Part shown: positions 8,201 to 31,996 of the stretch, in pieces
Layout: each line of letters starts with the position of its first letter
Numbering within the stretch: position 1 is the stretch's first letter
Source of the DNA: Balanoglossus misakiensis
Lineage: Eukaryota > Animalia > Hemichordata
Length of the DNA: 64,000 nt
Reading direction: 5' to 3'
Assembly: GCA_040954595.2 (NCBI GenBank)
Contig: CM082595.2
Span: 8,042,317 to 8,106,316, forward strand
Position numbers and translations under genes: made by a program
Notes under the pieces: generated by a model
What the model saw: only the letters and a program-made list of their open reading frames with translations
What the model was told of the DNA's origin: nothing
Database searches by the model: none

Positions 8201-10212
8201 GGATTGAGCTCTCGTCCAATCAGAATGGCGGATGGTAGCATGATCTGACATATTGCGTATTGCAATAGGCCTTCCCCAGATAGGTCAGAACGGAGAGGTC
8301 ATTCCCCTGAGCTTCTTTGTCTTTTCTATTATTTTTTGACAAATGCGGATTGACGTTCCGTTTCTACATGGCCATGACTGATATTTATTTACGTTTCATA
8401 GCGTAAGCGCTTGCTATTCGTTTCGCAATTGTTTTCGTAGTACAAACAAATTGAAGAAGACGAAATATATTATCTATGTCCCTAATGAGATAATCGGGGT
8501 TACATAATCGCACTTCCAAAGAACGCCGTGACAGAATTCATCAGTTGGCGAGGCGCATTCTCCACCCGCACACAATTGGTTTGGACATGAGTTTGTTGTT
8601 TGCTGTTTGGTTGGTCATGGAGCAACAGTCATGGAGCAACACGTAACATTGCCTGGGGTGTTCAATTCTGTAAATGCCATGAGATAGTTGCATGTACCCG
8701 AGTCTAGTGAAACATCGTTTTTGGCGATGTGGATTTCATTATTGCGTGACTGTGGGTCTCGATTCGTTCCTGTCAGACAGCCCAACAAGGACATACGCTT
8801 GACGTGCCTTAAAGGTATACGGTAACCTATGCAAATTTAGCTACTGTTACCATGGCAAATTGAGATACAGCCAATCACAGATATTCAGGAGGTGGCACAC
8901 GCGACAATAAGAGCGCCACCATTTGTTCTTTAGAACACTAGGATACGCAAGTTTAGCCATTTATGGACATATGCAAATTGGAGGGGATCGTGTATTAACT
9001 TGTAGACTTTGTCCGACATCGTCCGGTCATCACGGCTGAAATACTCCCATTGCGCATTGCTTATAGATATTTTAGGTCGACCCCGGTGTAGTCTACTCCA
9101 ATAGAAATGAAGAAAGTAAATATAAGATTACCGCCCGAAGTCTCAAACGTGAAAGCCATTTCAGTGGCACTACAGTGGATAAACATTTAATCCGTGTATA
9201 CTTCATGAAACTGAATCAGATAACTTTTATTCATACAAAATAAATGAAACATATGAAGAGAGGCCTATCTTGATTAAACACATAAATCTGATATTTTATC
9301 ATATTAGGTAACTCAATATTTTACACTTGACGTATTTTACCAATAACACAATGTTTCAGCGAACCCGTCAGGAGCAACTTTAGCAGCATACATTTCCTTG
9401 ATTTACGTTACATGGTCTTAATTCGAGAGACATTTCTCAATAAAATCAATAGTCACAGTTCATATTTTTTATAGAAACGGTCCAATTTGTCGAGTGCGCA
9501 CTGACAAGACATGCATCGTGCATAGACCACTATGCGGATAGGGTATCTGCAATGCATGATGGTATAATTTGCGTTCAACATAGCGTCTACTGCATGGCTA
9601 ATGCACGCGCTCAGAACGCAAACTATCCCACAACACCCTGTGTTATGCTATCCGCGAAGTGGTCCATGGCAGTGACAACAATTCCTATAGAGCAGTTAAG
9701 AAATAAACCGGCCGGCCGTAAATTCATTGGCTGTATTTTTTGTATTTATTTGATTTGAAAGGTCGCGTTTTCCCTGTTGCATGCAATTAGTTCAGGGCCA
9801 GTTTCAGCAGTGCTCTATTGAGTACTTTCGTATCAATGGATTGAGCTCTCGTCCAATCAGAATGGCGGATGGTAGCATGATCTGACATATTGCGTATTGC
9901 AATAGGCCTTCCCCAGATAGGTCAGAACGGAGAGGTCATTCCCCTGAGCTTCTTTGTCTTTTCTATTATTTTTTGACAAATGCGGATTGACGTTCCGTTT
10001 CTACATGGCCATGACTGATATTTATTTACGTTTCATAGCGTAAGCGCTTGCTATTCGTTTCGCAATTGTTTTCGTAGTACAAACAAATTGAAGAAGACAA
10101 AATATATTATCTATGTCCCTAATGAGATAATCGGTTACATAATCGCACTTCCAAAGAACGCCGTGACAGAGAATTCATCAGTTGGCGAGGCGCATTCTCC
10201 ACCTGCACACAA
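5298..10212. repeat. Three head-to-tail copies of a ~1636-bp unit
   Basis: attggtttggacatgag starts at 5298, 6939 and 8575; the same 68-aa ORF recurs at 6279, 7915 and 9552; copies are near-identical. Each holds one end of the TTAA MITE seen complete at 47786. Confidence 0.97.
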
Positions 10213-10297
10213 ACGTTGCACTGCATACTTTGACTAATTAGAATGCGAAAGCAAGATTCTGATTGAGTAGTAACTAATTTGCATAATTGACGAGCAG

Positions 10298-10412
10298 GTG
10301 CTGCCTCGTTCTCGTACCGCTGACCGTTGCATTTGAAAAATCATTGCAGCTTCGACGTTCATCAAGCATGGAGGTCCCGGTCGCCTCCATGCTTGATGAT
10401 GTCGTTTCTCTG
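10298..10412 (+). ncRNA. Putative non-coding exon A0 containing a pre-miRNA-sized hairpin
   Basis: Branch-like ctaat, acceptor gcag|, donor |gtaagcatg (same context as exons A1-A3); perfect 16-bp stem 10359-10374 / 10384-10399. Confidence 0.5.
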
Positions 10413-10657
10413 GTAAGCATGGCATTTACTGTAATTTTACAAGTACATGTACACTCCTTCTAGCAAAAACTGGTCGTGGTAGGGCGAGAGTGTCCTCCCA
10501 ACATCGAAATTCTGACTTAGGGAAGCGTTACAGCGCCAAACAGTAAACTCACAGTCGCATGGAATTCATGCGTTGTTTTACACCGTGCGAGTAAATTGTA
10601 CGTCGTTCGTGGCCTCGAGTCAGCTTTGTCATTGTGGGGCAGGTGGTACCGTAACAC

Positions 10658-11071
10658 CACAGGGGGCTCTCCCTCCGCAATTTTATTGTGTGTTTGTTTG
10701 TTGTTGTTGTTGATTGGCATTATAAACAAATACATATTTCTTTGTCAATAAATATGGTTTGTTGACATGTAAGGGTTAGGTTATTAGGGTATATTTGACA
10801 GGTTATGGTATATTCAACTGTTAGTATTAGTGTTGGCATTTTTGCGATCCACGGCCAGCATCACCCTCTCTTCGTGGCTTAGTGATGCCCGGGGCCGTGG
10901 ATCGAAAAAAGTGCCAACACTAATGCTAACCGTTGAATATTCCCTAACACTTACATGTCAACAAACCATATTTATTAATAAAGAAATATGTATTTGTTTA
11001 TAATGCCAATCATCAACAACAACAACAACAAACAAACAAACAATAAAATCGCGGAGGGAGAGCCCCCTGTG
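10658..11071. mobile_element. 414-bp foldback element with 7-bp TSD
   Basis: Almost fully palindromic (cacagggggctctccctccgc...gcggagggagagccccctgtg); gtaacac duplicated at 10651-10657 and 11072-11078. Confidence 0.9.
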
Positions 11072-11274
11072 GTAACACACTACAGTATAACTTTTAAGGC
11101 AAAGCGATAGCGAATAAACTGACCAGAATTAGTTTTGTTGTTGGGGAGATTTTTGGCACCATCGAGACTGTTATAAGCTACCAGTGTCAGCTATGGCATA
11201 GCTGTTAACACGCAGCCCTGCCACGCAGAGCTACAATGACTGGTTACTAACTTCTATGTCTATTTGATTCACAG

Positions 11275-11349
11275 ATGCTGCCTGAAAATGTCTGCGTTTC
11301 AACTCGGGATTCTCTTCCTCGTCCGAGGCGAGTTTAAGACCGCTCAATG
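11275..11349 (+). ncRNA. Putative non-coding exon A1 (75 nt)
   Basis: ctaac branch site, tatttgattcacag| acceptor, |gtaggc donor; splice signals conserved in three paralogous copies. Confidence 0.6.
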
Positions 11350-11922
11350 GTAGGCATGACTTGCTATATATTTGCTTTTATCACGCGTTGCAAACGGTAC
11401 AATAGGAAGCAATGTATGTCTACGAACTAATTTACACATTCCAGCTTTCAATACTTGTTTTTTCCCCTTCGAATTCTGGCCTTGATTGCCTGTGATATGG
11501 TAGTGATGACATGAATTAAATGGACAACTCACAAGTTCAAATCTTCACATGGAGCATAGAATACATTTGGATGCATTTCATTAAACATATAGCTAAAATT
11601 ACTCCCATACCAATACACAGGGAGATACTGTAGCTTTGGCTGAACATGCGCTAGTCCAACACCATGCTTAATCAAACTGGCTAAGAAGTCTATTATCATA
11701 TTAGACTTATGAAGGACAGTAATGAGTAATGTTGTTTAAAGTGACAAAAACAATAATTTAGGTCAGAAAGAAAAATGTAAATCATGACACAAACAGGCTG
11801 GATATTTTTTCTGACCCTATATTATACCATGTTTTGCATATTTTCACTATTTAGTATTGCCCACATAATTCTAAAGCAAGGTTGATTGGTTACTTATTAA
11901 TATGCATATATTTGATTCACAG

Positions 11923-11995
11923 TCTTAAACACAGCATTTCAACGTATGCCGGAGGAGGGAGAGAATACCTAGGCCTGATCCAAGACCGCTTTCCG
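11923..11995 (+). ncRNA. Putative non-coding exon B1 (73 nt)
   Basis: tatttgattcacag| acceptor, |gtaagc donor; complementary to exon A1. Confidence 0.6.
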
Positions 11996-13307
11996 GTAAG
12001 CACAACTTGCTGTATACATGCTCCATAGCTTGTTTGTAAAGGCTACCTTTTCCCATCAAACAGTGAAGTCGCCCTTTCAAAATTATGGTGGTGGCAAGCC
12101 ACAACTGGTTATCATGAAGAGTTGGACACCACTAATAATCATTTTAATATTTTCCAATGGGTAACCTTTATGTAACACTATCCTCAACAATTTCAGTCAA
12201 CAAGATTTATATTTCGCTGTATAGCAAGGCCGAACAAATATGACTGATTGATAGGGATTTATCTGAAAATATGACAAAATCAACAAATACAGAATAATAA
12301 GTCACCAAACATGTATCATGTTTTATTCGAGGGAACATGAGCAGGGTCCCATAAACCTGCCAACCCATGCTACCCATGACTTTACAAATGTTTCCGTCAT
12401 ACTATGCAGAAAATTCTGGCTGCTTTAAATAGGTTTTCACTTTGCGCTAGGGGGTCAAATCCCATTGCATTCTGGGCGAAAAGTTCACAACCAACTGTAG
12501 TAAGAGATAGAAGAAATGATATGTTTACTGTATTTCATGACTTCCTTTGGTCAAACATGTCTGTCTCTGTAGTTAGCATATTAAACCCATTAAACTGTTT
12601 TTCACATTTTGTTATTTTTTCTGTTAAAAAGTTCCAGAATGACCCATCATCACTTTAGCATATGAACTCCCATTTCTTTAACATGGCAAAAATCGGCCAT
12701 CTTGAAATTGTCGACCGTATGAGATTTTCATCGCTCACTTAGGGTAGCTTAAAACGTATTTCAGGGGAGAATTGTATAGGCATGACTTGGTCTGTAAATT
12801 TGATGAAATACCTACCTGCAAATTGTTCACAAGCAGCTGACTGTACTGAAAGACTGGAAGTGTTGTGTACTTATTTTACATATTCAATATTTGTAATTAG
12901 ACCATGTCATGTATATCTTGGGGATTGCTCGATCGCAATGTCTCTGCTGGTACAATGTCCTTTTAACTTGTACAGTAATATGGTAGTGATTGTAAGTTTG
13001 TGTGCAGCATTTGTAAATTATTTTCAATTTATAAATTATTTCTAAGTTTCTTCATTCTCAAATTGCTTGCCCAACTGCATTAAAATTTAAATTTTGGTAT
13101 GATTTTGAGTAGGCTTTCTGTTTCAAATTTATTTTCTACAATTTTTGCAATTTTTTGGTAAAATGATTTTCCATGGAAAATCTGATTTCCCTGTAATTCG
13201 GTTGACAGGATTTTCACCAGATCTCTAAATCATGAAGTACATGTATCAGAATTGCATCGCCCCCTCCCCCCCAAAAAAAAATTCTAGTCACCCTTGGCAT
13301 GTAGTAT

Positions 13308-15905
13308 TAGTGGAGCGGCCAAACCCCAATTTTCATCGCGATTGTGCATTTTGTGATAAAAACACCAAACTTGGCTCAGATGTGTGTTACTGTGTACTAA
13401 GCAAATTCAGATAGCGAGCCACTTAATATCTGTTAACGGGTAGCCATGGCAACCATTTTTCAAAATGGCCGCCACTACATTAATCTTTCACACAAAATAA
13501 CGACTAAAGAACACCAAGGTACTTTCAGATTATGATATTTGAAACCAGAAACTATAGAAAGGGTATTTGTGGTCACCGAAATAGTTCTGAATATAGAATA
13601 AAGGATAAAACACAGTTTAACGTCTACAGTACAGCGGCATAACAAATCGATTGTGCATTTTGTGATACAAGCACCAAACTTGGCTATGTGCATTAATGTG
13701 TACTAAACAAATTCAGATAGTGAGCCACAATATCTGTTGATGAGTTTCCATGGCAACTATTTTTTCATTTTTTCAAAATGGCCGCCAATACAGATAATCT
13801 CACCCACAAAATAACAATTATAAAACTCCAAAATAAATTCATATTACAAAATTTGAAACAAGAAACTGCTCAAAGAGTAATTTCTAAAATTTTTATCATC
13901 ACTAAACTAGTTAAAGGGGTAAATACAGGATCGAGATTCAGTCGCTAAAGAAATTCAAGTTTGGTAATAACCACGATTACAACAAACTTAGTTAAAACAC
14001 TGTATAACCATAGATATATTATAATAGTGACCTGGCATAAACAACATTTTCATAAAATTTGGGCATTTTGTGATAAAAGTTTAACAGGTAAACCTCAGTT
14101 GATTCGTTATTTTCCCCATAAAAATATCTTTCATGAACAAAATTCCAAATTTAGTCAACCCAGGAAAAAACGGCATCTTGTTTCTCAACTTTATAAATTG
14201 ATCTGACCAGTTTGAATCAGTGCAGAATCTAGCTTTTCTATTTTAGCTTCATCAAATGATTCATGCAAATAAAGAATCACTTCCCCATAAAATGATGGCA
14301 GAAAGCCAGTATCATGACAGTCGATTGGTTTGTTAAAGTTACTATAGAAACTAACTATGTCTAGGTTGTATGTACATAGATAGATGTTAGGAATCAAAAT
14401 CAAAATCTGTTTCAAACTTTTCATCCAATACTTGTCCTTCGGAAAGCGTTTTGATGAAGTCGCTTGAAGTGCTTTGTATTGCTCATGTTATCGATAATTT
14501 TAATCGCACCTTGATGATAGTCAGCAGTTCTATTTTGACATGTTATTTTGTGTTTTTTGAAACCCCAAAATCAAAGAATAAAATGATAAAGTGAAAATAA
14601 GCTTCAAAACACCAAAAGTCTTCAGGATCACAGCTTTTCTGTAAAGAGTAAGATTTCGCTTACTTCATGCTATTAAATGAAATGAAGTTTTCCTAATATC
14701 TCTTGCAAAGTCGGATCTTTACACATTGAGATATTAGAATGAAAGTACATTCCAAGTGACTTGTTGGGAGCATTGGGCCACCTAATCCCAGAAAATTGCA
14801 ATAATACCTGTTTTTCCATTTACCAATCTAAAGGCCAACTGCTTGTATCTTTAGTTGGGTTTCTATAATTAACACACATTTTTGACAATATTTATGGCAT
14901 GATGAACACTATTCTCGACAAATAAAATAATGTTGTGTCCCCCGGTGTAATTTTTATGAGTTTGGAATCATAGACATCATTTATCTTTTGGTCAACTCTG
15001 TTAACAGTCGCCAAAATTGCTGGAGTCGAACTGATACATGATCTAAAGTATCAAGACATATGGTCGATTATTAACGTTTCAGCAATTCGACTTAAGTTTC
15101 TTTAATTTCCTATGGCATTTTGACAAACATCAACGCCCTGAAAAAACGTTGTCAACGCTGCGGTCGCGATTGTGGTCGAAACAAAGCCAACATTTTCGCA
15201 TGGTTTGTTACCCGGGGTCCATTTAGATTGCATTGCGTTTGAGGCCCTATGTGTATGTCTGTCGACCAATAAACGCGACGACCGTGGACTCAGTTTGGAT
15301 CAACGTCTATTTCGGGCAGTGGACTCTCAGTTGATAAGGAAATTTTACCAGTCACGAGTAAGCTAAGCCCGCATCCGTGTGCAATTCGAATATATCGGTG
15401 ATCTGTTAATATGATTATCATTGGCTAAGGTGGTAAACTGTTGTGATTCATATGACGTGTAATTTATGTACTGCAAGTTAAATATCGCAATTAGCCTAAT
15501 GTTTGACGATAGACAGTATGGTTTCACTTCTAGAGGAGCACCTATTAATCCGAGAACAAAGGGATTAAAAGTTGCGCCTTTAAATTGTGTTTTGATAACT
15601 TACTTACCCCTATAAGTAGTTTAGTAACCATAATATCTTTGCAAATCATTCTTTACACAGTTCCTTGTATCAAATATAGTAATCTAAATTTATTTTGGTG
15701 TTTACAGTTGTTATTTGGTGGGTGAAATTATCTGTATTGGTGGCCATTTTGAAAAATCGGTTGCCATGGAAACTCATCAACAGATATTTAGTGGCTCGCT
15801 ATCTGAATTTGTTTACTTCACATTAACACACATCTGAGCCAAGTTTGATGCTTTTATCACAAAATGCACAATCGCTATGAAAATTAGGGTTTGGCCGCTC
15901 CACTA
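13308..15905. mobile_element. 2.6-kb non-autonomous DNA transposon, Academ-like
   Basis: Long TIRs tagtggagcggccaaac...gattgtgcattttgtgataaaa; TAG/CTA ends; 3-bp TSD tat (13305-13307, 15906-15908); the empty site is seen in the paralogous copy near 20036. A second terminus-like copy lies inside at ~13627. Confidence 0.85.
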
Positions 15906-16007
15906 TATTAGCCATTGATCTGGGAAAGTTACAAAAATGTGTTGTCCAAGCACGTTGAAGGTACAAGTGGTTTTTACACTAGCTATGAAGGCATTTTATT
16001 AAAATTA

Positions 16008-17600
16008 TTAGGTCCCGTTTGGTATATGTATTTATACCATGGGACCTTACAGGATCAGTTGCACCTGTATGTATGGATGTCTGTATGGATGTTTGTCTGT
16101 ATGTCCATCAACATCAAACATTTGGAAACTACTGGCGTGTGACCTTGATATTTAGTGTGGAGATGCAGGCAAGGCAGTAGGGGGGAGTTTGTCTAAATGA
16201 AGTTGTCATTGCCAAAATATGCAAGTGAGCTGGGAAAGTGTCAAATTTGTCAAAACTGAGGAACTCAAAAACTACTGGGTAAATTGCTTTAAAAATTGAA
16301 AATTGATATGCATGTACCTTATAGTAACCTCACACAGCCCTTTATGTTGTCAGCTTATGTGAATTTCCAATGTTTATGCATTTTTTGTCTCCACATTATC
16401 GGTAAAAAATCTACTTTTCTGGAATTGATCAGCTGACTTGTTTGAAATTTAGTATGAAGCTTCGCAGGTGATCTGAGTTACCATAGTTTTGATTAAAGTG
16501 TTGCAAAATTTGTGTATTTTAATTGTGTAGCAATTTTTAGGTCCCATGGCATTTGGTTTGTGTATATATATATATACGATTGGGACCTTATGGAATGACT
16601 TGCATCTGTATGTATGGATGAACGGATGAAAACTGCTGTGCATATCACTTCCATATTTAGTGTGTAGATGAAGGCCGGGCTGTAGATGGGATTTTGTTCA
16701 AATGAGGTTGCCATTGCCAAAAGTATTACCTGTGAAAATGTGAAATTGGTCAAAAGTCAGAAACTCAGCAACCACTGGTCAGATTGATCTGAAAACTTGT
16801 ATGTCAATAAACCCCATACAGTCCTGTATGCTTTGAGCTAATATTATGAATTTTCTAATGTTTATTAATTTTTTGTCTTTTTCCAAATTATTGGTAAAAA
16901 AATCTTCACTTCTGAAAGCGATAGTCCGACTCCTTCGAAATTTAGTATGAAGCTTCCTATAGGTGGTCCGAGTTACCATATTTTTTGTTCAGATTGTTGT
17001 AAAATAGGCATATTTATAATTTTGAGCAATTATGCCAATTTTGGTCAGAATGCTTTGCAATTTGGTAGGCAGATTCCCAGGGGTAACCCAAGTGAGATGT
17101 CTTAAAAATGGTTAAAACTTCATCTTTGTCTTATTTGGAGATATTTTATGCAATCTTTGTCAAAAACTGTTTTCTCTGAAAACGTTCAAACCGTTGTCTG
17201 GTTGCTTTGAACTTTGGCAGGAATGTTCCTTGTAGTGATTGAAGTAAGATGGTGTACAATTATAGTGATTTTTGCATATTTGTGTTTTTGCCACTTTTGA
17301 ACAAATGTGTTTTTCTTTGAAACTGCTTTTTTGATGGCTTTGAAATATGGTAGGAAAATTCCTAGGGGTAACCCAAATTTTTTTTCTGATTGCTTTAGAA
17401 GTTGGTTTACAATTTCATAACACATGTACCTGTATGTGCGACTTTTATTAAAGTCTGGTTTTTAATATTTAGGTAGTTTTGTTGTAATTTCTTTGTTTTT
17501 GGATAGCAAATCTTCTCTTGAACCAATTGCCCAGTTTCTTTGAAAGTTACTGTTAACAAGGTGAGTTGGTACACCCAACTTAGACTTTTACATCCAACTT
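16008..17600 (+). mobile_element. Second, older HINE-like family (head aggtccc...gggacct plus TGTA/TGGA microsatellite); copies start near 16008, 16538, 20138, 20647, 23402 and 26024
   Basis: Repeated 5' inverted repeat followed by a microsatellite and a shared core; matching 3' ends gggacc-ac-agtgtc(c/t)ctgacgc-like at ~24488 and ~29156. Confidence 0.6.
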
Positions 17601-17648
17601 AGAGCTACTATGACTGGTTACTAACTTCTAGGTCTATTTGATTCTCAG

Positions 17649-17723
17649 ATGCTGCCTGAGATTGCCTGCATTTCAACTCAGGATTCTCTTCCTCGTCTGG
17701 GGCGAGTTTAAGACCGCTCAATG
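17649..17723 (+). ncRNA. Putative non-coding exon A2 (75 nt)
   Basis: tatttgattctcag| acceptor, |gtaagc donor; paralog of A1. Confidence 0.6.
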
Positions 17724-18905
17724 GTAAGCATGACTTGCTATATATTTGCTTTTATCGGGCGTTGCAACCGAAGCAATAGGAAGCAATTTGTATGTCTACG
17801 AACTAATTTACACATTCCAGTTATCAATACTTTTTTTTCCCTTCGAATTCTGGCCTCGATTGCCTGTGATATGATCGTGATGACATGAATTAAATGGTCA
17901 AGTTCAAATCTTCATGTGATGCATAAATTAAATTTGGATGCATTTCCTTAACCATATAGCTAGAAATTACTCCCATATCAATACACAGGGAGATACCGTA
18001 ACTTTGGCTGAAAGTGTGCTAGTCCAACACCATGCTTAATCAAACTGGCTAAGAGATCTATTATTATGTATAGACACATGAAGGAAAGTAATGTTGTTTA
18101 GAGTGAAATAAAACAATACCTTAGGCCGCAAAGAAAAATATAAATCATGACACAAACAGGCTGGATTTTTTTTTCAAAAATGTGTGCGTAAGATCACATT
18201 GGCTGATGGTGACCAAAGCCAGAGAAGCGCAGTCCTGAATTCGGAAATCTGATCAGTACCAGAAACTTGCTCAAAGCTACTAAATGCACAAAAAGTTTTG
18301 AGAATCTTTATAAAGATAAAAAATCACCAAGCGACTATTGGGCTTGTCTGTGTTCAATATGTCTTCCCTGGTAACAACATCTACTTCCGCCACCACGCCA
18401 TGAGATATACTGACAGCCACGTTTGAAACATTTTAGTATACTGATATTTAAAGTTTAAATTTTAAGGCTTACTTTTCTATACTTAAATAAATGTTTTATA
18501 ATTGCCAACAATGTACATTCTTATGCTAATCAGTTGTATGAAAAGTGAGATGGATCAAATGCAAGTTTCATTTTCACAACAAACAAAGAAATCATTGTAC
18601 AGTGTTACATAGATGTCAAAGTGCGTGTACACCTTCTGTCATTTACAGAATCTGATATCATGTCAGTTTCAGTTGTCACCTAATTGCAATGTTTGGGGTA
18701 TATACCCATGTGGACCACTTTACTGCAGTACTGATGTAAATGGAGTTTTAAGATCGACGTATTCCACTGTTGTACATTATCGCAGCACAGTCTGACCGTA
18801 CATTATACCATGTTTTGCATATTTTCACTAATTAGTATGGCCCACATAATTCTAAAACAAAGTTGATTGGTTACTAATTAATATTTGCATATATTTGATT
18901 CACAG

Positions 18906-18978
18906 TCTTAAACACAGCATTTCAACGTATGCCGGAGGAGGAAGAGAATACCTAGGCCTTTTCCAAGACCGCTTTCCG
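18906..18978 (+). ncRNA. Putative non-coding exon B2 (73 nt)
   Basis: tatttgattcacag| acceptor, |gtaagc donor; complementary to A2. Confidence 0.6.
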
Positions 18979-21900
18979 GTAAGCACAACTTGCTGTATAC
19001 ATGCTCCATAGCTTGTTTGTAAATGCTACCTTTTCCCATCAAACAGTGAAGTCGCCCTTTCAAAATTATGGTGGTGGCAAGCCACAATCGGTTATCATGG
19101 AGAGTCCCATAAACTTACCAGCCCACGCTAGCCATGACTTTACAAATGTTTCCCGTCATACAGTGCAGAACATTCTGGCTGCCTTAAATAGGTTTTCACT
19201 ATGTGCTAGGGGGTCAAATCACATTGCATTCTGGGCGAAAAGTCCACAACCCACTGTAGTAAGAGATGGAAGAAATGATACATTTTTTGTATTTCATGCT
19301 TTGGTCAAACATGTCGTTCTCTGTAGTTAGCATATTAAACTCATTAAACTTTTTTCACATTTTGTTATTTTTTCTGTTAAAAAGTTCAAGAATGACCCAT
19401 TATCACTTTAGCTTATGAACTCCCATTTCTTTAACATGGCAAAAATCGGCCATCTTGAAATTGTCGACAATATGAGATTTTCATCACTCACTTAGGGTAG
19501 CTTAAAACGTATTTCAGGGGAGAATTGTATAGGCATGACTTGGTCTGTAAATTTGATGAAATACCTACCTGCAAATTGTTCACAAGCAGCTGACTGTACT
19601 GAAAGACTGGAAGTGTTGTGTACTTATTTTACATATTCAATATTTGTAATTAGACCATGTCATGTATATCTTGGGGATTGCTCGATCGCCATGTCTCTGC
19701 TGGTACCATGGTAGTAATTGTAAGTTTGTGTGCGGCATTTGTAAATTATTTATAAATTATTTTGTAAATTTCCTCATTCTCAAATTACTTGCCCAACTGC
19801 ATTAAACTTTAAATTTTGGTATGATTTTGAGTAGACTTTTTGTTTCAAAATTATTTTCGACACTTTTGACATGTTTGGGTGATATGATTTTACATGGAAA
19901 ATCTGATTTCCCTGTAATTTGGTTGACAGGATTTTCACCATATCTCTAAATCATGAAGTACATGTATCAGAATTTGCATCAGGCCCCCCCCCCCCCACCC
20001 CCCACCCCCAAATTTTAGTCGCCTTTGGAAAGTCATATTAGCCATTGATCTGGGGAAGTTACAAAAATGTGTTGTCCAAGGGCGTTGAAGGTACAAGTGT
20101 TTTTACACTAGCTATGTAGGCATTTTATCAGAATTGTTAGGTCCCATTTGGTATTTGTATTTATACCATGGGACCTTATTGGATCAGTTGCACCTGATGT
20201 ATGTATGGATGTTTGTATGTCCGTCAACATCAAACACTTGGAAACCTTGATATTTAGTGTGGAGATGCAGGCACAGGGGTAGATGGGAGTTTGTCTAAAT
20301 GAAGTTGTCATTGCCAAAATATGCAAATTAACTGGGAAAGTGTCTAATTCGTCAACTCTGAAACTCGACAACTACTGGGCAAATTGCTTTCAAAATTGAA
20401 AATTGGTATGCATGTACCTTACGTTAACCTCACACAATTCTATATGTTTTGGGCTAATAATGTGATTTTTTTTTATGCATTTTTTGTTTCTTTCCACATT
20501 AGCAGTAAAAAATCTACTTTTCTGGAATTGATCAGCTGACTTGTTTGATAATTAGTATGAAGCTTCATAGGTGATCTGTGTTACCAACCTTAGTTTTGTT
20601 TAAATTATTGCCAAAATTTGGGTATTTATAATTTTGGAGCAATTTTTAGGTCCCATTTGGTTTATGTGCATGTATATGATTGGGACCCGAGGAATCAGTT
20701 GCATTTGTATGTATGGAGTGAATGGATGAAAACCGCTGCGCGTATCACTTCCATATTTAGTGTGTAGATGCAGTCGGGGCTGTAGATGGGATTTTGTTCA
20801 AATGAGGTTGTCATTGCCGAAAGTATTACCTGTGAAAATGTGAAATTTGGTCAAAAGTCAGAAACTCGACAACCACTGGTCAGATTGATCTGAAAATTGG
20901 TATGTCAATGAACCCATACAGTCCTGTATGTTTTGAGCTAATATTATGAATTTTCTAATGTTTATTAATTTTTTTTTCTTTTTCCACATTATTGGCAAAA
21001 AAAATCTTCACTTCTGAAAGCGATAGTCTGAATCCTTCTAAATTTAGTATGAGGTTATATTACATATGCTGGAGTATGATAAGCTGTAGAACATTCATTT
21101 GGTGGCCATATTGAATTTATTCAAAATATAAGTGCAAACGTAAATTTTTTTTTTTTCAAAATTGTTCTAAATGTCATAGAGATAGTTTTGAATAAAAACA
21201 CTAAAATAGCTTGTGTAATACCCAATATACAGCCCAAATATGGGACTCTAGGAATACTGTTCAGCATATTGAATTTATGCAAATTATGAAATCTGCCCAT
21301 GTCAAATATTACTTCAAGATGGTTCTTAATGTACATGAAATATTTTTATACTTTAAAATCATAGAAAAGGTCGTGTTTATTTCTTGATATTTGGCCCCAA
21401 AATTTTCAATATTAAATGTATGCAAATTAGAAATATTTCTACAAGGTGGATTCGGGTTCAATTAATCTAGACACCTCTCCAAAATATATTCTGAAGAAAA
21501 AAATTCTGTTGCAATTTATGGTGGGTTAGGTCCCCAAATCTCAAACTTTGGCAGAAATGTTCCTTGTAGTGATTAAAATAAGATGGTGTACAATTATAGT
21601 GATTTTTGCATATTTGTGTTTTTGCCACTTTTGAACAAATGTGTTTTTCTTTGAAACTGTTCTTTTGATTGCATTGAAATTTGGTAGGAATATTCCTAGG
21701 GGTAATACTATTTTTTCTGATTGCTTTGGAAGTTAGTTTACAATTTCATAACACATGTACCTGTATGTGCGACTTTTATTAAAGTCTGGTTTTTAATATT
21801 TAGGTAGTTTTGTTATAAATTCTTTGTTTTTGGATAGCAAATCTTCTCTTGAACCAATTGCCCAGTTTCTTTGAAAGTTACTGTATGTTAACAAGGTGAT

Positions 21901-24722
21901 GGTATACCCAACTTAGACTGTATTCACCACATGTTTACGTAAATTTAATATGCCAGCTTTTACACAGACCCCCAGCTATTCTATTTTGAATTACCCAGTG
22001 GCAGGTCACTCAAAATTTTTGAGCAGGTATTCCATGGTTTCTTGATATCACAAAATCGTCTCGAACAGGTCTCCCATTAGACACGTTTAGCCCCTTGATT
22101 AGCCGATGTCCAAAAACATTTAGGCATTTCAGAGATCATTAGTCAGTTCATCAGTCCACTTGTTATGTTGGGTTGAAAAACACACACTTGAATTACTTGC
22201 TATTTACAGTCCTGCAAGCTGCTTAAAACTTGTGTGGACACTGATTTTATCATGTTGGGTATCTTCAAACTTTGATACCACCCCTAGCAATTTTTTATAC
22301 TGACATGGTTTCTCTCCAGTGATTTCAACATCCTACTAGGAATACAACCCCTCCTCAACTTCATAATATAGGGCATGAAATTGCAGGTTTTTGAGAACAC
22401 TATTCAAAATCATCCCCATCAAGTCTGTAAACGTCTTTGGACAGATTTCTCTCCAGAGTAAAACGAAACATGCAATAAAGAGACTTTATGCAATAAAAAC
22501 ATGTTGATCATAACTCCAAACAATAATTTGCTATGTACAACATCTCAATCGCTAATAGTAGGTATGGCCATAAGCATAAACCTGTTTGTTTTGCTATCTT
22601 CACTATTCATGTTATCTGACTATATTAATACATTTGCAAGCATACTGTTTCAGACGTAGTGAAGTTGATAAACATTTACGGGTATATTTTTACCTGTTGA
22701 AACTTACGGAAGTTGATCAAAAACTGGACACTTCACATAGGATTTTTCATCCCCTCTGTAGATTGATAGTCTAACATAGCAGGCAATCTTTCTTTCAAAA
22801 CTGCAGAGGCCTTTATAAAAAGTTGTTGGCAAGAATGAAAGCTTGGGGGGGGGGGGGGGGTGGGGGGGGGGTGTAGGATTTCCTACATTTTAGGTTATTT
22901 TTTTATATGCCCCCCAAAAGTTATGACAAAAAATTGATGACACCCTCAGAATTTATACTCCCTCCCCCATCATACGCTATCCATATTCATATAAATATGT
23001 CAATAAACGCCATACTGTCCTGTAGATTTGAGCTAATATTATGGATTTTCTATTTTTTATCGTTTTGTCTTTTTCTGCATTATTGGTAAAAACATCTTCA
23101 TTTCTGAAAGCGATAGACTGACTCCTTCAAAATATAGTATGAAGCTGCCTATAGGTGGTCCGAGTTACCATAGTTTTGTTCAAATCGAAATTGTTGTAAA
23201 ATTGGCATTTTTAATTTTGAACAATTTTTGCCATTTTTGCTCAGAATGCTTTGAAATTTGGTACGCAGATTCCTAGGGGGTAACCCAAGTAAGATGTAAA
23301 ATATGCTTAAAATTGCGTGCTTGTGTTATTGGGGAATTTTTGTACAATTTTTATCAAAAACTTTTTTCTCTGAAAGCGCTTGTCAGGTTGCATTGAACTT
23401 TTAGGTCCCATTTAGGACCTAATGGAATCAGTTGCGTCTGTATGTATGGATGGATGTATGTCTGTATATCCGTCCACATCAAAAACTTGAAAACCGCTGC
23501 GTGTATCACCTTGATATTTGGTGTGTAGATGCATGCTGGGCTGTAAAAGGGAGTTTCTTCAAATGGAGTTGTCATTGACTTTAAAAAATATGCAAATTAG
23601 GTGGAAAAATTTGAAATGGGTCAAAACTCAAACTCACCAACTACTAATCAGATTAATTTGGAAATTGGTATGCAGGTACCTTATGTCTACCTCAAACAGT
23701 CCTGTATGTTTAGAGCTAATATTGATTTTCTATTTTTGATGCATTTGTTTATATTAATTTTTCAACATTATTGGTAAAAAATCTTCATTTCTGAAAGTGA
23801 TCGGCCTACTTCTTTGAAATTTAGTATGAAGCTTCTTATAGGTTGTCTGAGTAACCATGGTTTTGTTCAAATTATTGCAAAAAATTACATATTTATAATT
23901 TTGATGATAATTTTTTTGTTATTTTTCCCCTCTGAAACCGCTTGTCAGATTGCTTTGATTGATTCGCTTTTTGGCAGGCATGTTCCTTGTGGTGATTGAA
24001 GTTAGGATTTTGAACAATTTTGGTGATATTTGCTTGTATGATTTTTTGCCACTTTTGAACAAATATTTAGCGAGTTTTTTGCAAATTATTGATTTTGGTT
24101 AGCAAATCTTCTAAACTCATGTCCAGTTGCATTGAAAGTTACTGTTTACAAGGTATTGGTACCCCGAGACTGTTTACACTACATGTTTACATAACTTAAT
24201 AGGCCAGCTGTTACAGAGACCATTAGCTATTGAATGTCTGTCAGTCTGTCCAAGGGCTGACTGTAAGAAGTTGCTTGTCATGTGTGTTTCTACACACAAT
24301 TTTTGGTCAAACATAAATTTTTCTTGCATCACTTGTAAGACTGCCATGACACATGACAGTCTATTGGGTATGGTCCTTGTTAATTTTTTTACATTTTCAT
24401 ATTTATATATGGTTAGGTCATATCTGCTTGCCAGTGTCGCATGTGATTTTTATTCTTGTCTATAACTAATTCCGTGTAATCCTCAAATGGGACCACAGTG
24501 TCCTTGACGCTATTTTTTCATAGTCATCCCTAAAAGTCTGGTGTTATGTGCCCCCCCCCCCCCAATTTCTCATGTAAAAAAACCGATGGCCCCCTGGAAA
24601 TCCTACAGCCACCTCAATTCCTGGGGAAGTATATTCTCAACACTCCCTTATATCACATCCCATATATTGCGACCTACAGGTTTATGATTTGTTACTAACT
24701 GCTATGCATATTTCATTCACAG

Positions 24723-24807
24723 ATGGAAGCCATGATTGTCGCAATTTCAACTGGTCCAGGGTTTCTCGTTCTCCTGTGCGCTGAAGCTTGGTTAAGACTA
24801 CTTTCTG
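24723..24807 (+). ncRNA. Putative non-coding exon A3 (85 nt), diverged
   Basis: ctaac branch site, tatttcattcacag| acceptor, |gtaagcatga donor retained despite divergence. Confidence 0.6.
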
Positions 24808-25320
24808 GTAAGCATGAGTTCATCTATATTTGCTTTTTTAGGGCATTATTGATTTCCTGTAATGTGATTATGATGAGGTGAATGAACTGGACATAAATTC
24901 AGTTTGGACACATTTAGAATTGGCAGAATTACCCATAGCTATAATTGTATATAGGCGCCTTGAATTTAATTATTTGTTTGCCGTCCATGGGTGGGTATGT
25001 TTTAGGTACAGTGTTATTAAGTCTGTGTGCATGTTTTTGTTGTTTACACATAAATATCATTTGTCACCTGATTGCCATGTAAGAGAATACCCATATGGAG
25101 CTTCTATACTCTGCAGTACTATTACTTAGTCAGATGTAAATGGAGTTTCAAAATTGCTGTTTCACAGATTTATCTGCTAAGTATTCTATTGTTATGCGTT
25201 GTCACAACACAGCCTTGACCCTACATTATACCATGTTCTGCATATTTTGACTTATTAGTATGACATAATGCAAGTTTGTGATTGGTTACTTATAAACATG
25301 CACGTATATTTGATTCACAG

Positions 25321-25422
25321 GTGGACTGTCTTAAATGGTCATCATTAGGCTGTGCAGGAGGGGGAGAAGACCTTGGACCCTATGTTAAAGACCCTTGCGG
25401 CCCCGTCAAGTACCTTTTTCTG
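25321..25422 (+). ncRNA. Putative non-coding exon B3 (102 nt), diverged
   Basis: tatttgattcacag| acceptor, |gtaacc donor; ~27-bp complementarity to A3. Confidence 0.55.
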
Positions 25423-28400
25423 GTAACCACAACTTGTTGTATACATGCTTCATAGCCAGTTTATATGTTACTGTTTTTAATCAAATAGTTAATTCACCCT
25501 CTCAATTTTATTGGGGCAGCAATCCACCGTTGGTTTATTATGCACACCTCTAATAATCACTTGTCGGATGAATATTCTCCACTTGGTAACCTTTATGTAG
25601 TGCTATCCTCCACGATCAAGAAGTGGGTTGATTATGACTATTTGAATAGGGTACCTAATTGTATTAAGGGTATAGGGGAAGTATTTCACAAATGTTTGTG
25701 TACATGGATTTCTCATTTCAACTCATTGGAGATTTTTTTCCTTCATTTTGTGATCTTAGTTAGTTTGGCGCAAATTGTTGCCAGTTTTGCATATTTGTAA
25801 TGTTTGGTCAATTTTTGCCATTCCGAGTCGAAAATCGTTTTTCTGAAACTTTTTGTCAGATAGCTTTGAAATTTGGAAGGCATGTTCCTACTCAGGCGAG
25901 GGGTGTAAACCTAAGTAACTGTTGGTGTGAAATTTGGTGAAACTTTTGGGAAATTTTGCAACTTTTCATCAAAAATTGTTTGAAACTACTTGTCAGATTG
26001 ATTGTAAATTTAGTCAATCTTTGTAGGCCCCATTCAATATATGTGTATACCACTGGGACCTTATGCGATTCAGCTGCTTCTGTATCTATGTCCATCCACA
26101 ACAAAAACTTATAGCCGCAATATTTGGAGTGTAAAGGCTGTTCTGTAGATATAATTTTGTTTAAGTTGTCATGGCCAAAAATGTGCAAATGAGCTTGAAA
26201 AACGTTAAATGGTCTAAACTCATCAACTACTGGGCAAATTGCTTTATAAATTTGTATGCATGACGACTTCAAAGTCCTGCATGTTTTGAGCTCATATCAT
26301 GAATTTTCTATTTTTTATGCTTGTTTGGACTTTTCCATATTTTTTGTAAATAAACAATTTATGGAAGTGATAGCCAATTTCTTTAAAATTTAGCATGAAG
26401 CTTCCTATATTTGATCTAAGGTGGCTTTTGTAAATTGCCTATTTGTAAGTTTGGGAGATTTTTACCAATTTTGCTCAAAAATCATTTTCTCTGAAATCCC
26501 TCGTCAGATTGCTTTTAAATTTGGTTGGAACGTTCCTTGAGGTTACCCAAGTATGATGTTGTAAAATGTTAGTGAAATTTGTGTTCTTGGGGCAATTTTT
26601 GCAATTTTCCATCAAAATTCGTATCCTTTAAACTATTTGTTGATAATAGCTGGTAGCCGATCAAAACTCTGGTTGTACTCAGCTTGTGACTGTCGATAAA
26701 ACTATTATTTTCAATAAAAATCTGCCGAGAAAATGCAGACTGATTCCAAAGGATTCTTATCTTAAATAGTATAGGCTGAAACTATTTCCGTCATAACAGA
26801 AGGGTTCAAAACGTAATAATCTAATGCTGTAAGTCGCAATCTCGCCTTCCTATCTCCAGTGAAAAATGATAAGACAACACCAATGGTATGAGTAATGATA
26901 TAACCCATATTTATTTCAAGTTAACTAAACTGTGATAAAAGCAGTGATAGAACTGGTTTCAATTTAGAAGGTATTGCTTGGACCACGAAAAAAGACAATT
27001 AATACTGACAGTAATGAAACGCATCCCATCCATGCATTCATCAAAAGTAATTTCTTCATGCTTTTTGAGCAACTTGGCCTATGTATAGTACCCTATTGTC
27101 TCTCAATGCAAGCCACTTGCTTTCACAAAACAATCCCATTTTGCCACTTTGTACTGTTCTTTATATTTTGATCTGAATCTAAAAATACCATCGACTCATC
27201 CAGTGTGAGTTAGCACTGTAATGAGCCAAAGTTATAAATCCACAGTTACCCAGCAAATTTGATTTAATGCTTCCCAAAGGTATTGGTTTTGAACTCTCTT
27301 CTGAAATAGGTATGAAAATTTTAAAATTTCTACTGTTTCAACCCAGACTAGTTTATTTCTGAGTAAACAGAGAAATGACAACTGATAGATTATTCCTCTG
27401 TAATAAAGACATATGCAGACACAAGAAAAAGTCTGAACATAATCAGTACATTACTAAAACAGTGTAGGTACATTGTACTATAAACTCAGGAAGATAAGTG
27501 ACTATTGTTTGCCAAAAATGGTCCCAAGTCATTTCTCAAGCAGAGCAGAATAGTAGCTTAGAGAAGCAAAGTGTGATGATTTAAAATGTGAAAAGGCAAC
27601 ACCAATCTCTAGCTCTGCTCTTAGCACTGCAAATGTTATCAGACAGGTAGATAGATGTTCAGTCATCCTATGTCTGTCAACACTTTTTCTTTTCTGAAAT
27701 CACTGGTGCAAGTGCTTTCAAATTTGGTATGCAGGTTTCTGGGGGTAGCGAAGTAATGCGTGTTCAAATTGTGTTGAATTCTGCATATTTGTAGTTTGAA
27801 ACGAGTTTTTGCTGTCTTTGGAAGAAGAAGTAAGCTTGTAGGATTTCTTTGACTATGCAAGTTTCTAGGGATAACGCAAGTTGTTTCTTCAAAATGTGGT
27901 GAAATTTGCATTTTTTTTTTGGGGGGGGGGGAAGTTTCTCTGAAATTTAGTATGTATCTCCATGAGGTTTGTGACATAACTTGCAATTTTGTATTTTGGG
28001 GGCAGTTGCCTTTTTATTTGGACTTAAAATCATATTAGAATATGCATATCTGATTGTCATGTCCACAGGGGTGATATTATTTGTTTACATTATGACCGAA
28101 TCTGTAAAGTTTTCATAATGATCTTTAAAATTGGTACGTCTAATTGTTTCGATCTTTGTTGTGAATTGTCCCTGAGTGATCTTAGTCATTTTTTTAAAAT
28201 TCTGCTGAATATTGCATTATTATTTTATGTCTGAGTCTGAAGAGTAGTCCTCTTCTCTGAAACCCCTTGCCCTAAAGTCAGGTGTCAAATAGTATAATTT
28301 GCATATTTGTTGCATATGGGATATTGTTGCAGTTTTTTGAAGTTCAAGATGGCTGCCAATCTTTGTTTTAACTCTTTGGAAAAACATTTATTTAAATACT

Positions 28401-28629
28401 TTTCTGAAAACAAGGTGGTGAACATCACATGTTTTCAAACAGTAATTGATATAGCTATCATTGTTTCTGAAAATCTTAACTTGTAGGATTCTTTTTTAAT
28501 CTCTAGCATCTGCAAAGACCACTAAAACAGCAACTCTATAAAAAGTCTTATTGCTTAGTACTGACACAAGGTGGTAAAAAGATATGCAGCTTTTGACTTC
28601 TTACAGGCTTACATTTTGTTAGTGATATC

Positions 28630-29318
28630 AGTCCCTTTTTGGTATTGTGCTGTTTTTTTCAGGAGCTTGGGCCCCATTCCCTGGATTTTTTTTGCACACC
28701 TGGCTCTGAAAAGCTGCCACACCTAGGCTTCTCAAATTTGTCACAGCTGTCCTTGCCAACGAGTGTGCACCTTGAAATTCAAATCAGTTATTTGACCTGG
28801 CAGCCATATTCAGTTAAACTTTTTGAATTAATGCAAATTAGCTGGGACAATTTGAAATTGGTCAAAACTCAGAAACTCGACAACCACTGGTCAGATTGAT
28901 TTGACAATTGGTATGCAAGTACCTTATGTCAACCACATACAGTCCTATATTTTTTTGAACAAATAGTTTGAATATTCTATTTTTATGCATTTTTTCATCA
29001 TTTTTGGCAAAAAGTCTACTTTTCTAGAATTGATGAGTCGACTTCTTTGGGCGACGGCAAAGGCTAGGGGGGAATTTAAACGGATTTTATTGCCTCTATG
29101 TGTGTGTCTGTCTGTCTGTACTCCTGTGTAGACTTCTTTTAGTGTAATCACTAAATGAGACCACAGTGTCCCTGACGCGATTTTCAGTGACCCCAGGGTA
29201 ACCTTTGACCAGCTTTCCTATATCTTAGTATTCACAGCAGAATACAGCCTTGGCATACTAACCCTGGTAACCATGGGAACTGTTTGGGCCCCACCAATGG
29301 TGCTGGCAGCTTTAATTT
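28630..29318 (+). mobile_element. Degenerate solo relative of the nested HINE family
   Basis: cttgggcccc near 28667; the 3' end gtttgggccccaccaatggtgctggcagctttaatt resembles the nest tails gcttgggccc...aatgctgcttgcagctttaat. Confidence 0.45.
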
Positions 29319-29444
29319 TTAAATGATTTCTTCTTATCATTGTTTTTTTATCAATGATGATGACTTGATCTAATCAGTTTTTTAAAATAATTTCATTCTT
29401 TTTTTACATTAGGTTCATTGGTAACACTGCTGCTAGAGGGAGTG

Positions 29445-30063
29445 TAATACTTGTAACGACGCCGCCACCTAATACTGTACTGGAGAGATGAACTTAATAC
29501 TTGTAACGACGCCGCCACCTAATACTGTACTGGAGAGATGAACTTAATACTTGTAACGACGCCGCCACCTAATACTGTACTGGAGAGATGAACTTAATAC
29601 TTGTAACGACGCCGCCACCTAATACTGTACTGGAGAGATGAACTTAATACTTGTAACGACGCCGCCACCTAATACTGTACTGGAGGGATGAACTTAATAC
29701 TTGTAACGACGCCGCCACCTAATACTCTACTGGAGGGATGAACTTAATACTTGTAACGACGCCGCCACCTAATACTGTACTGGAGGGATGAACTTAATAC
29801 TTGTAACGACGCCGCCACCTAATACTGTACTGGAGAGATGAACTTAATACTTGTAACGACGCCGCCACCTAATACTGTACTGGAGGGATGAACTTAATAC
29901 TTGTAACGACGCCGCCACCTAATACTGTACTGGAGGGATGAACATAATACTTGTAACGCCGCCGCCACCTAATACTGTAACTGGAGGGATGAACTTAATA
30001 CTTGTAACGACGCCGCCACCTAATACTGTACTGGAGGGATGAACTTAAACTTGTAACGACGCC
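29445..30063. repeat. 50-bp minisatellite, ~12 copies
   Basis: Unit taatacttgtaacgacgccgccacctaatactgtactggag(a/g)gatgaact. Confidence 0.97.
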
Positions 30064-30247
30064 AGATGATGCTTCTGTGACCAGAGGGATGAACAACGCC
30101 ATGATTTGTTGATCTGATCTAATTAATAATATTCATTCTTTTTTTTTTCAATAGGTTCATTGGTAATATCATCGCCGGAGGGAGTCTAATCAATATCTAC
30201 AACAACGCTGCGACAGATAACAATATCATAACCAGAGGGATGCTGTC

Positions 30248-30437
30248 AATAGGTTAGGTTAATAAAAATGGTTTAATCTGAGGGAATGGTAAAGGGTTGG
30301 TGTATGAATATGTTAGGGTAATAAAAAATGGTATAATCTAACGGAATGGTGAAGGGTTGGTGTATGAATAGGTTAGGCTAATAAAAAATGGTATAATGTA
30401 ATGGAATGTAATGGAATGGTGAAGGGTTGGTGTATGA
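30248..30437. repeat. ~60-bp tandem repeat, ~3 copies, each with AATAAA
   Basis: aataggttagg..aataaaaa..tggt..aat..ggaatggt.aagggttggtgtatg repeated. Confidence 0.75.
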
Positions 30438-31045: not shown

Positions 31046-31996
31046 CTTTCGTCATCGTAATTCCCGCATCAACACGAATCCTCAATCTCACGTAACAACA
31101 ATACATCAAAATGTACACAGAAAAATAGGAGTCGGCAAGACAATTCTGGTTAGTGTGAGCCCCAACCTTTTAAAATTCACAACGGGGGAGGGGGCAGTTT
31201 TTCCTCATTTTATATTTGGCTCGAGGTTTTTAACTGTCCCCAGGCGCGTAAAGTTAGTTAGTTTATCACACAGAATGTAATTATCTTGCTTGATTTAAAA
31301 AAACACTAAAATTGTATGGGGAGCTTCTTGCGATTTGTACTTAAGAAACTGATGGTTTTTACCCATAGGTAATAATTAGTATTAACACATAATTGCCTAG
31401 AAATAAAAATTAACTCAAGGGTAGAATGCAACAGTTTATTTTGTGCAATATCAACAGGAGCTATTTTGGCACATTATTTCAGTTTGATAAACACTGTTTT
31501 TGCTCATTGTTTCATTTCGACCACATTATTTCAGTTTGATAAAAACTGTTTTTGCTTATTGTTTTATTTCAACCACTTTTGTCACCTTGTTTTAAATTGA
31601 ATGCAAGCATTGTTTCTGTTTGACCACTACTTGGGGTAATTGTTCCAAATTGGTATGCAAGATATTTTACATCAGCAGTTAGCCATCTAGCCACACTTTA
31701 GCTGCACAGCATATGAAAAATAATGAAATTCATGCAAAAAGCAAAAAAGTATTATGGGTATAATGCCATTGCAGCATTGGCGGTTCGACTCCGTCGATAC
31801 TTACTTTGAAGCATAAGTCTTCATTATTTTTCATATGTAATAAATAAAACTATTCCAAATTCATATCTTTGTTTTCAGTTTGTGCTTTTGCTTCAGTTAG
31901 GGGGCCCACACTTACCAAACCTGTCTTGCCATCTTTTCACATTTCTTTAAATATGCAGCGCCAGCAGTAGGCAGTATTTGATCAAATTGACCAACA

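What the first reader, a model, noticed from the sequence alone, without database searches (positions are those of the whole stretch)
11275..25422. Repeated exon pairs that fold into a conserved hairpin after splicing
Seen: three A/B pairs of short segments with strong splice signals (11275-11349/11923-11995; 17649-17723/18906-18978; 24723-24807/25321-25422), separated by 0.5-1.2 kb introns. Each A is complementary to its B: attctcttcctcgtccg with cggaggagggagagaat (pair 1); an 18-bp equivalent in pair 2, where the differences within the stem all keep or improve pairing; and ggtccagggtttctcgttctcctgtgc with gtgcaggagggggagaagaccttggacc (~27 bp, pair 3) despite very different sequence. An apical stem gtttaagac-cgctcaat-g|tcttaaac crosses the splice junction in pairs 1 and 2; ttaagac/gtcttaa persists in pair 3. 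No reading frame runs through all exons. Inference: a structured lncRNA or small-RNA precursor (loosely analogous to Drosophila hpRNAs or a spliced pri-miRNA cluster) expanded by duplicating a two-exon module; alternatively the pairing could bridge splice sites in the pre-mRNA.
Basis: partly seen in the sequence, partly recalled or inferred. Interest (0 to 1): 0.88.

Follow-up and report, generated by a model that had tools for sequence, protein, structure and literature searches.

The report
Hairpin halves split across duplicated exons
Seven short copies of one exon-like unit lie in a row in an apparently animal genome, and in three places neighbouring copies are near mirror images predicted to zip into a double-stranded hairpin across the intron between them, likely as part of a non-coding RNA whose expression has not been shown.

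Summary
The six segments, their splice signals and the A:B complementarity are real and beyond chance: the duplexes were matched by 1, 1 and 0 of 1000 shuffles. New points: A and B are paralogues of one exon, with shared flanks and ends but mirror-image middles. A seventh copy upstream (E0, 10298-10412) holds its own 22-bp hairpin, the longest perfect hairpin in the window. Pairs 1 and 2 are a recent duplicate, so only two modules are independent. The core helix is predicted in the unspliced RNA too, so splicing is not needed to form it. Signs of selection are moderate. Splice flanks are better kept than exon bodies, module 3 has 7 G·U against 0 A·C mismatches on the spliced strand, and cognate pairs beat swapped pairs (neutral P 0.006-0.22). 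One inversion in a duplicated exon could have created the pairing. No protein, Rfam or relative match was found, and expression could not be tested. Best reading: a likely spliced non-coding RNA with 17-27-bp inter-exon duplexes, most likely Dicer-type substrates (0.4). It resembles intron-split miRNAs and short hpRNAs but fails tests for both.

The parts
10298..10412 (+).
   Evidence: Best donor-profile hit after the six (12.9 against 6.7 for the next on this strand). nhmmer: A profile E 0.0021 over 10253-10424; B upstream flank E 2.6e-5 over 10217-10285. Alignment. The acceptor position is inferred.
10353..10404 (+). 22-bp hairpin inside E0 (16 perfect pairs at 10359-10399, 7-9-nt loop)
   Evidence: z -5.93, 0 of 200 shuffles; longest perfect hairpin with a loop of up to 20 nt in the window
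11275..11349 (+). Exon A1 (75 nt); core arm 11309-11325, apical arm 11332-11339; branch point at 11245
11923..11995 (+). Exon B1 (73 nt); apical arm 11923-11930, core arm 11950-11966
17649..17723 (+). Exon A2 (75 nt), recent copy of A1; core arm 17683-17700; branch point at 17619
18906..18978 (+). Exon B2 (73 nt), recent copy of B1; core arm 18932-18949
24723..24807 (+). Exon A3 (85 nt); core arm 24753-24779, apical arm 24792-24798; branch point at 24693
25321..25422 (+). Exon B3 (102 nt); apical arm 25328-25334, core arm 25352-25379; donor has C at +5
11227..29050 (+). Tandem array of module units about 6.4-7.1 kb apart (A + intron + B + repeat-rich spacer); CpG-poor and T-rich on the plus strand
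   Evidence: Self-BLAST. CpG o/e 0.43 and AT skew -0.082 over 11400-29000, against 0.98 and -0.011 over 2900-11200.

Best explanation
Seven paralogous exon-like segments likely belong to one spliced non-coding transcript, in which each A exon is predicted to pair with the next B exon as a 17-27-bp helix that selection likely maintains, most likely as a substrate for Dicer-type small-RNA processing. Shown: the paralogy, the splice signals, the complementarity, E0's self-contained hairpin and the absence of a common reading frame. Inferred origin: one exon with short complementary ends was duplicated; the middle of one copy was inverted (or each copy kept one arm of an older hairpin), giving A and B; the A-intron-B module was then duplicated twice. 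Inferred action: the helix can form before splicing, and splicing would shrink its 0.5-1.2-kb loop to 49-59 nt, giving a compact hairpin close in size to E0's unsplit one. The Dicer step is untested and is the weakest link; it rests only on helix lengths of 17-27 bp.
For: (1) The complementarity is beyond chance. A3 aligns to the reverse complement of B3 along its whole length (58 identities, 0 of 1000 shuffles). (2) Strand bias: the transition mismatches in module 3 are 7 G·U against 0 A·C (P 0.008); pooled with module 1 they are 8 against 1 (P 0.02). The best ungapped helix score of A3:B3 is 17 on the spliced strand and 7 on the other. (3) Cognate pairs beat swapped pairs by 13-20 kcal/mol. 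(4) Between module 3 and modules 1/2, the 50 nt before the acceptors (0.73-0.81) and the 25 nt after the donors (0.80-0.92) are better kept than the exon bodies (0.49-0.59, gaps counted). The intron after A falls to 0.44-0.53, the level of random pairs (mean 0.44). Splice signals and pairing persist while the exon sequence drifts. (5) A seventh copy carries a hairpin of similar size and different sequence. (6) CpG depletion and T-richness begin near the first exons, as expected of a transcribed gene body (the interpretation rests on recalled knowledge of invertebrate methylation). (7) No protein match.
Against: There are no expression, junction or small-RNA data. Only two modules are independent. 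In the ungapped register of the cores of modules 1 and 3 (read by eye), 10 of 16 positions are unchanged, 1 changes on both sides, 3 change on one side and still pair, 1 breaks and 1 is repaired; this register depends on how the indels are placed. Modules 1 and 2 alone show no strand bias (G·U against A·C 1:1 and 2:2). Neutral simulations from a perfectly complementary ancestor reach the observed cognate advantage in 5-22% of runs. They keep helices this good in 2-24% of runs at matched divergence and in 60-82% at lower divergence. In the full spliced RNA, B1:A2 and A1:B2 compete with the cognate pairs. The arms are not conserved as a mature miRNA would be and match nothing else in the window. 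The CpG and skew pattern also occurs in the repeat array at 44-64 kb.
Confidence: 0.4

Rival explanations
1. Neutral relic. A duplicated exon had its middle inverted between its short complementary ends, which created a perfect A:B duplex in one step. The duplex has been decaying since, inside a spliced or dead gene that does not use it.
For: A matches the reverse complement of B along its length, while the flanks and exon ends are direct repeats. Simulations from such an ancestor give the observed cognate advantage in 5-22% of runs and helices this good in up to 24% at matched divergence. Modules 1/2 have lost part of the outer stem that module 3 keeps. The exon bodies are less conserved than the intron next to B.
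Against: 7 G·U against 0 A·C in module 3, which a strand-symmetric decay does not predict. E0 has a separate hairpin in the same exon family. With A1/B1 or A3/B3 as the ancestor, the cognate advantage has P 0.006-0.05.
Confidence: 0.25
2. Splicing control. The duplex acts in the pre-mRNA by looping out the A-B intron, so that A and B are included together as one cassette, possibly as alternative modules of a small protein-coding gene.
For: The core helix forms in all three unspliced modules. E0, A1+B1, A2+B2 and A3+B3 are 115, 148, 148 and 187 nt, all 1 modulo 3. The same offset is open in E0 (chance 0.26), in modules 1 and 2 (0.10 for a given frame, 0.28 for any frame) and in B3 (0.19). The E0 and module-1 peptides align globally better than all but 31 of 3000 shuffles.
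Against: A3 has two stops in that frame and is frame-shifted against A1 in its middle. A1 pairs with B2 as well as with B1 (difference 0.5 kcal/mol), so the pairing cannot choose a module. No Pfam or database protein matches (weak evidence for such short queries). The local E0-module peptide alignment is not significant (301 of 3000). No flanking constitutive exons were identified.
Confidence: 0.2
3. Structured lncRNA without dicing. The helices and junction stem-loops are repeated binding or editing sites for double-stranded-RNA proteins (Staufen or ADAR type), or a localisation signal like the oskar SOLE.
For: It shares the structural evidence of the best explanation. The 7-8-bp apical stem is invariant and brackets the junction. 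The branched 49-59-nt top is unlike an animal pre-miRNA loop (the geometry is recalled).
Against: No direct evidence. The apical stem shows no covariation, and it is lost in the unspliced folds of modules 2 and 3 but present in module 1.
Confidence: 0.15

Closest known systems
Intron-split miRNA genes: plant miR444 and miRtop14 (PMC11706861, passages read); nematode inc-miRs (Zhang, Maniar and Fire 2011; paper not held, seen only as described in PMC4307256 and cited in PMC12219410)
   Same: An intron lies between the two arms of a hairpin, and splicing shortens the loop.
   Different: Here there are three tandem modules and one unsplit hairpin exon, all from one ancestral exon. The arms are not conserved between modules, the top of the hairpin is branched, and no small RNA has been shown.
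Drosophila hpRNAs, above all the tandem mini-Tmy complex (10.1101/2021.08.05.454923, passages read)
   Same: Fast-evolving inverted repeats, amplified by local tandem duplication (four copies in mTmy-C).
   Different: Those arms are nearly perfect and about 130 bp or longer, and they match a target gene. Here the cores are 17-27 bp, split by introns, and match nothing else in the window.
oskar SOLE (PMC10484445, passages read)
   Same: A stem-loop made from the end of one exon and the start of the next.
   Different: The SOLE is one 28-nt element in an mRNA and needs splicing. Here it is repeated, sits on a long helix, and can form unspliced in module 1.
Competing RNA structures at duplicated, mutually exclusive exons (PMC6071210, abstract and outline read)
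   Same: Duplication of stem-loop arms together with exons yields competing pairings (B1 with A1 or with A2).
   Different: Those docking and selector sites go with duplicated introns and coding exons. Here the arms are the exon bodies, and one module has no open frame.

Membership tests
Intron-split miRNA (miR444, miRtop14, inc-miRs) | Intron between the 5' and 3' arms of the hairpin | tested here: met
   573, 1182 and 513-nt GT-AG intervals between the arms; splicing itself is inferred
Intron-split miRNA (miR444, miRtop14, inc-miRs) | Discrete 21-22-nt miRNA/miRNA* reads that depend on splicing | not testable with these tools
   No reads could be laid on the locus
Intron-split miRNA (miR444, miRtop14, inc-miRs) | Mature arm more conserved than its surroundings | tested here: not met
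   Exon identity 0.49-0.59 against 0.73-0.92 for the splice flanks, module 3 against modules 1/2; paralogues only, no orthologues
Canonical animal pri-miRNA | About 35-bp stem with a short unbranched loop (recalled) | tested here: not met
   Cores of 17-27 bp with a 49-59-nt top; E0 has 22 bp and no continuous basal stem
Drosophila-type hpRNA | Long, nearly perfect inverted repeat (about 130 bp or more in the paper read) | tested here: not met
   The longest near-continuous helix is 27 bp
Drosophila-type hpRNA | siRNAs made by the endogenous RNAi pathway | not testable with these tools
   No small-RNA data
Drosophila-type hpRNA | Arms complementary to a target gene elsewhere | tested here: inconclusive
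   No match outside the exons within the window at up to 25% mismatches; no genome held
Any Rfam 15 family | Score at or above the gathering threshold | tested here: not met
   0 matches in 64 kb; at E up to 5 only sub-threshold matches, the one touching an exon being mir-135 at E 1.5, 18.5 against 59.2 bits
Mutually exclusive coding cassettes | Same length modulo 3 in all modules | tested here: met
   115, 148, 148 and 187 nt
Mutually exclusive coding cassettes | Open frame in every module | tested here: not met
   Two stops in A3 in the shared frame
SOLE-like junction element | Stem-loop forms only after splicing | tested here: inconclusive
   Apical stem p 0.97-1.0 spliced in modules 1 and 2 and 0.6-0.8 in module 3; unspliced 0.74 in module 1 and below 0.3 in modules 2 and 3

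The most novel reading that the evidence does not exclude
A polycistronic, intron-split small-RNA gene in an animal. One exon was copied and internally inverted, so that alternate exons became the two arms of a hairpin. The module was amplified, and splicing now gates the release of several fast-evolving small RNAs from one transcript, next to an unsplit sister hairpin in a paralogous exon.
Probability: 0.2. Interest if true: 0.8.

Novelty: new variant of a known kind. Interest (0 to 1): 0.55.

Why it matters
If expressed, the locus shows a simple route to a structured RNA: exon duplication plus inversion makes a hairpin at once, and tandem duplication multiplies it. Intron-split hairpins are described as rare (miR444 and miRtop14 in plants, inc-miRs in nematodes). 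A tandem cluster of them, with split and unsplit versions in one gene and pairing kept while the sequence drifts, would be a natural test of whether splicing gates dsRNA processing in animals. If the pairing is a relic, it is a caution: one inversion can mimic a conserved structure.

Tried and rejected
Expression: no RNA holder was listed for 11200-12130; this is no evidence either way, and no reads could be laid. No whole genome is held.

Relatives: two pattern scans of metagenome contigs gave 0 matches. One scan of viral contigs gave 1 match, which has no exon-like sequence behind it. Earlier findings: none by place, by sequence (two look-ups) or by the first set of words.

Coding: Pfam found 0 families for 7 exon frames, for 8 long ORFs and for 95 ORFs of 75 codons or more outside the 90-bp satellite. 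The B3 frame gave 4 hits among 1.84 billion proteins, all sums of stretches of 6 bits or less in repetitive proteins. The B1 and E0 ORFs gave none against longer proteins. A1, A2 and B2 were not searched in these large databases.

A MITE-like unit with inverted ends was considered because the branch-point and donor regions around B look complementary. It was rejected: the best case is B3, at 32 of 500 shuffles, and the rest are at 161-462 of 500. Opposite-orientation insertion of a whole element was rejected because the asymmetric flanks are direct in A and B. The exon body of E0 alone is not significantly similar to A3 or B3 (149 and 804 of 2000), so its membership rests on the flanks. An internal alternative acceptor in E0 near 10350 was considered; the flank homology favours 10298. 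snoRNA or ribozyme readings: no Rfam support.

The organism was not identified: the best ORF of the window had no homologue, and a paper search on a guessed lineage listed nothing on this locus. Formal covariation testing is not possible with two independent modules.
Full report
Context. The window is AT-rich and dense in repeats, with no Pfam hit in 95 ORFs and no Rfam match. Spliceosomal signals, patchy CpG depletion and the repeats suggest an animal, probably an invertebrate. This is an inference; the organism was not identified. No genome is held, so every structural test below uses paralogues inside the window.

The six segments sit between CAG and GT at the stated places, with introns of 573, 1182 and 513 nt. 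Each A has TACTAAC 30 nt upstream. The core helices have 17, 18 and 27 positions, each with one mismatch and with 1, 1 and 5 G·U pairs. The duplex energies were matched by 1, 1 and 0 of 1000 shuffles. The spliced modules fold with z -3.2, -3.5 and -2.5, while single exons do not fold better than shuffles.

They share about 45 nt before the acceptor, about 25 nt after the donor and both exon ends. A profile of the A exons with their flanks finds the B exons on the same strand at E 8e-11 to 6e-5. A profile of the A exon bodies alone finds B1 and B2 on the opposite strand at E 0.03 and 0.002. A3 aligns to the reverse complement of B3 from end to end. The simplest history is duplication of an exon with short complementary ends, inversion of the middle in one copy, and two duplications of the A-intron-B module. 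Retention of opposite arms of an older hairpin would look much the same. Modules 1 and 2 are recent copies, so only two modules are independent.

A seventh copy, E0 (10298-10412), lies 862 nt before A1. It has the family's donor and a B-like upstream flank. It contains a 22-bp hairpin of its own (z -5.9), whose 16 perfect pairs are the longest in the window. The same exon family thus carries one unsplit and three split hairpins of similar size.

Is splicing needed? Not for the core. In folds of the unspliced modules most core pairs have probabilities of about 0.9-1.0. The apical stem takes only one G from across the junction, and the intron's last G can replace it: it forms unspliced in module 1 (0.74) but not in modules 2 and 3. 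Splicing would shrink the loop from 0.5-1.2 kb to 49-59 nt. In the full spliced RNA, module 3 folds on itself, whereas A1, B1, A2 and B2 share partners.

Is the pairing under selection? The evidence is moderate. In favour: module 3 has 7 G·U against 0 A·C mismatches on the spliced strand (P 0.008; 8 against 1 with module 1, P 0.02). Cognate pairs beat swapped pairs by 13-20 kcal/mol. The splice flanks are kept at 0.73-0.92 while the exon bodies are at 0.49-0.59 and the intron after A is at random level. Against: modules 1 and 2 alone show no G·U bias. Only one clear two-sided change is visible, and it depends on the alignment. The neutral P for the cognate advantage ranges from 0.006 to 0.14 and from 0.05 to 0.22, where the ancestor is a perfect inverted copy. 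Helices this good survive neutrally in 2-24% of runs at matched divergence and in 60-82% at lower divergence (250 runs per setting, with mutation parameters of my own choosing).

Is it coding? No frame crosses all the exons. However, E0 and the three modules are all 1 modulo 3 in length, and one offset is open in E0, modules 1 and 2 and B3, as alternative cassettes would be. A3 has two stops and a shifted middle in that frame, and no database protein matches. I keep this reading, together with a splice-bridging role, at 0.2.

Mechanism. Shown: the anatomy, the paralogy, the complementarity and the strand bias. Inferred: transcription on the plus strand from upstream of E0 (CpG o/e falls from 0.98 to 0.43 and T-richness begins there, though the repeat array at 44-64 kb looks similar), splicing, and maintenance of the helices. 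Guessed from helix length alone: Dicer-type cutting into small RNAs. Odds: diced non-coding RNA 0.4, neutral relic 0.25, splicing or coding cassettes 0.2, undiced protein-binding or editing scaffold 0.15.

Comparison with what is known. It works most like the intron-split miRNA genes. PMC11706861 (passages) states that such genes were known in plants only for miR444 before miRtop14, and that a non-spliceable gene gave almost no miRNA. Nematode inc-miRs are described in PMC4307256 (passage); the original paper is not held. It also resembles the tandem mini-Tmy hpRNAs (10.1101/2021.08.05.454923, passages), the oskar SOLE (PMC10484445, passages) and competing structures at duplicated exons (PMC6071210, abstract and outline). 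It is not shown to belong to any of these: the arms are too short for an hpRNA, and they are neither conserved nor shaped as canonical miRNA arms are. Eight searches (listings and abstract starts only) listed no tandem cluster of intron-split hairpins in an animal. The library lacks most subscription papers, and I read no supplements (those of bioRxiv are closed), so small-RNA catalogues of this organism could already list these arms. Earlier notes of this scan describe other duplicated intron-plus-exon modules in other genomes (unchecked), which suggests that the duplication itself is not rare. The mirror-image exon pairs are the unusual part.

Verdict. A real and unusual piece of gene anatomy, with moderate support for a functional RNA duplex and no expression evidence. 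New variant of a known kind; interest 0.55.

Noticed in passing
window 10656-11073: Long fold-back element (nested inverted arms of 57, 92 and 42 nt, 88-96% complementary) in the intron between E0 and A1; looks like a MITE.
   Followed up: no
window 5298-10212: Three tandem copies of a 1.64-kb CpG-rich unit, 98-99% identical, ending about 85 nt before E0. A very recent duplication or an assembly artefact; it may cover the promoter.
   Followed up: no
window 41376-41768 (-): 131-codon ORF whose ESM Atlas neighbours score 0.93-0.95 and include OB-fold clusters. No Pfam family and no homologue among proteins of similar length.
   Followed up: partly
window 29413-30252 (+): Two related exon-like segments behind strong T-rich acceptors (starting at 29413 and 30155). 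The first is interrupted by a 50-bp tandem array (29445-30063, 12.4 copies). The second has one open frame of 33 codons with no Pfam hit and low Atlas recognition. They could be the 3' part of the same gene.
   Followed up: partly
window 24663-24748 (+): The intron end before A3 can pair with the start of A3 across the branch point and acceptor (weak Rfam mir-135 match, E 1.5), in competition with B3. The other exons show no matching structure.
   Followed up: partly
window 25270-25445 (+): Around B3, and less well around B1 and B2, the branch-point region is complementary to the donor region. B3's non-consensus +5 C improves this pairing. Not significant (32 of 500).
   Followed up: yes
window 31991-35890: 90-bp satellite, 43 copies, 92% matches.
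   Followed up: no
window 45600-64000: Higher-order repeat array built of 238-bp and 155-bp subunits, separated by short 13-14-bp palindromic hairpins.
   Followed up: no
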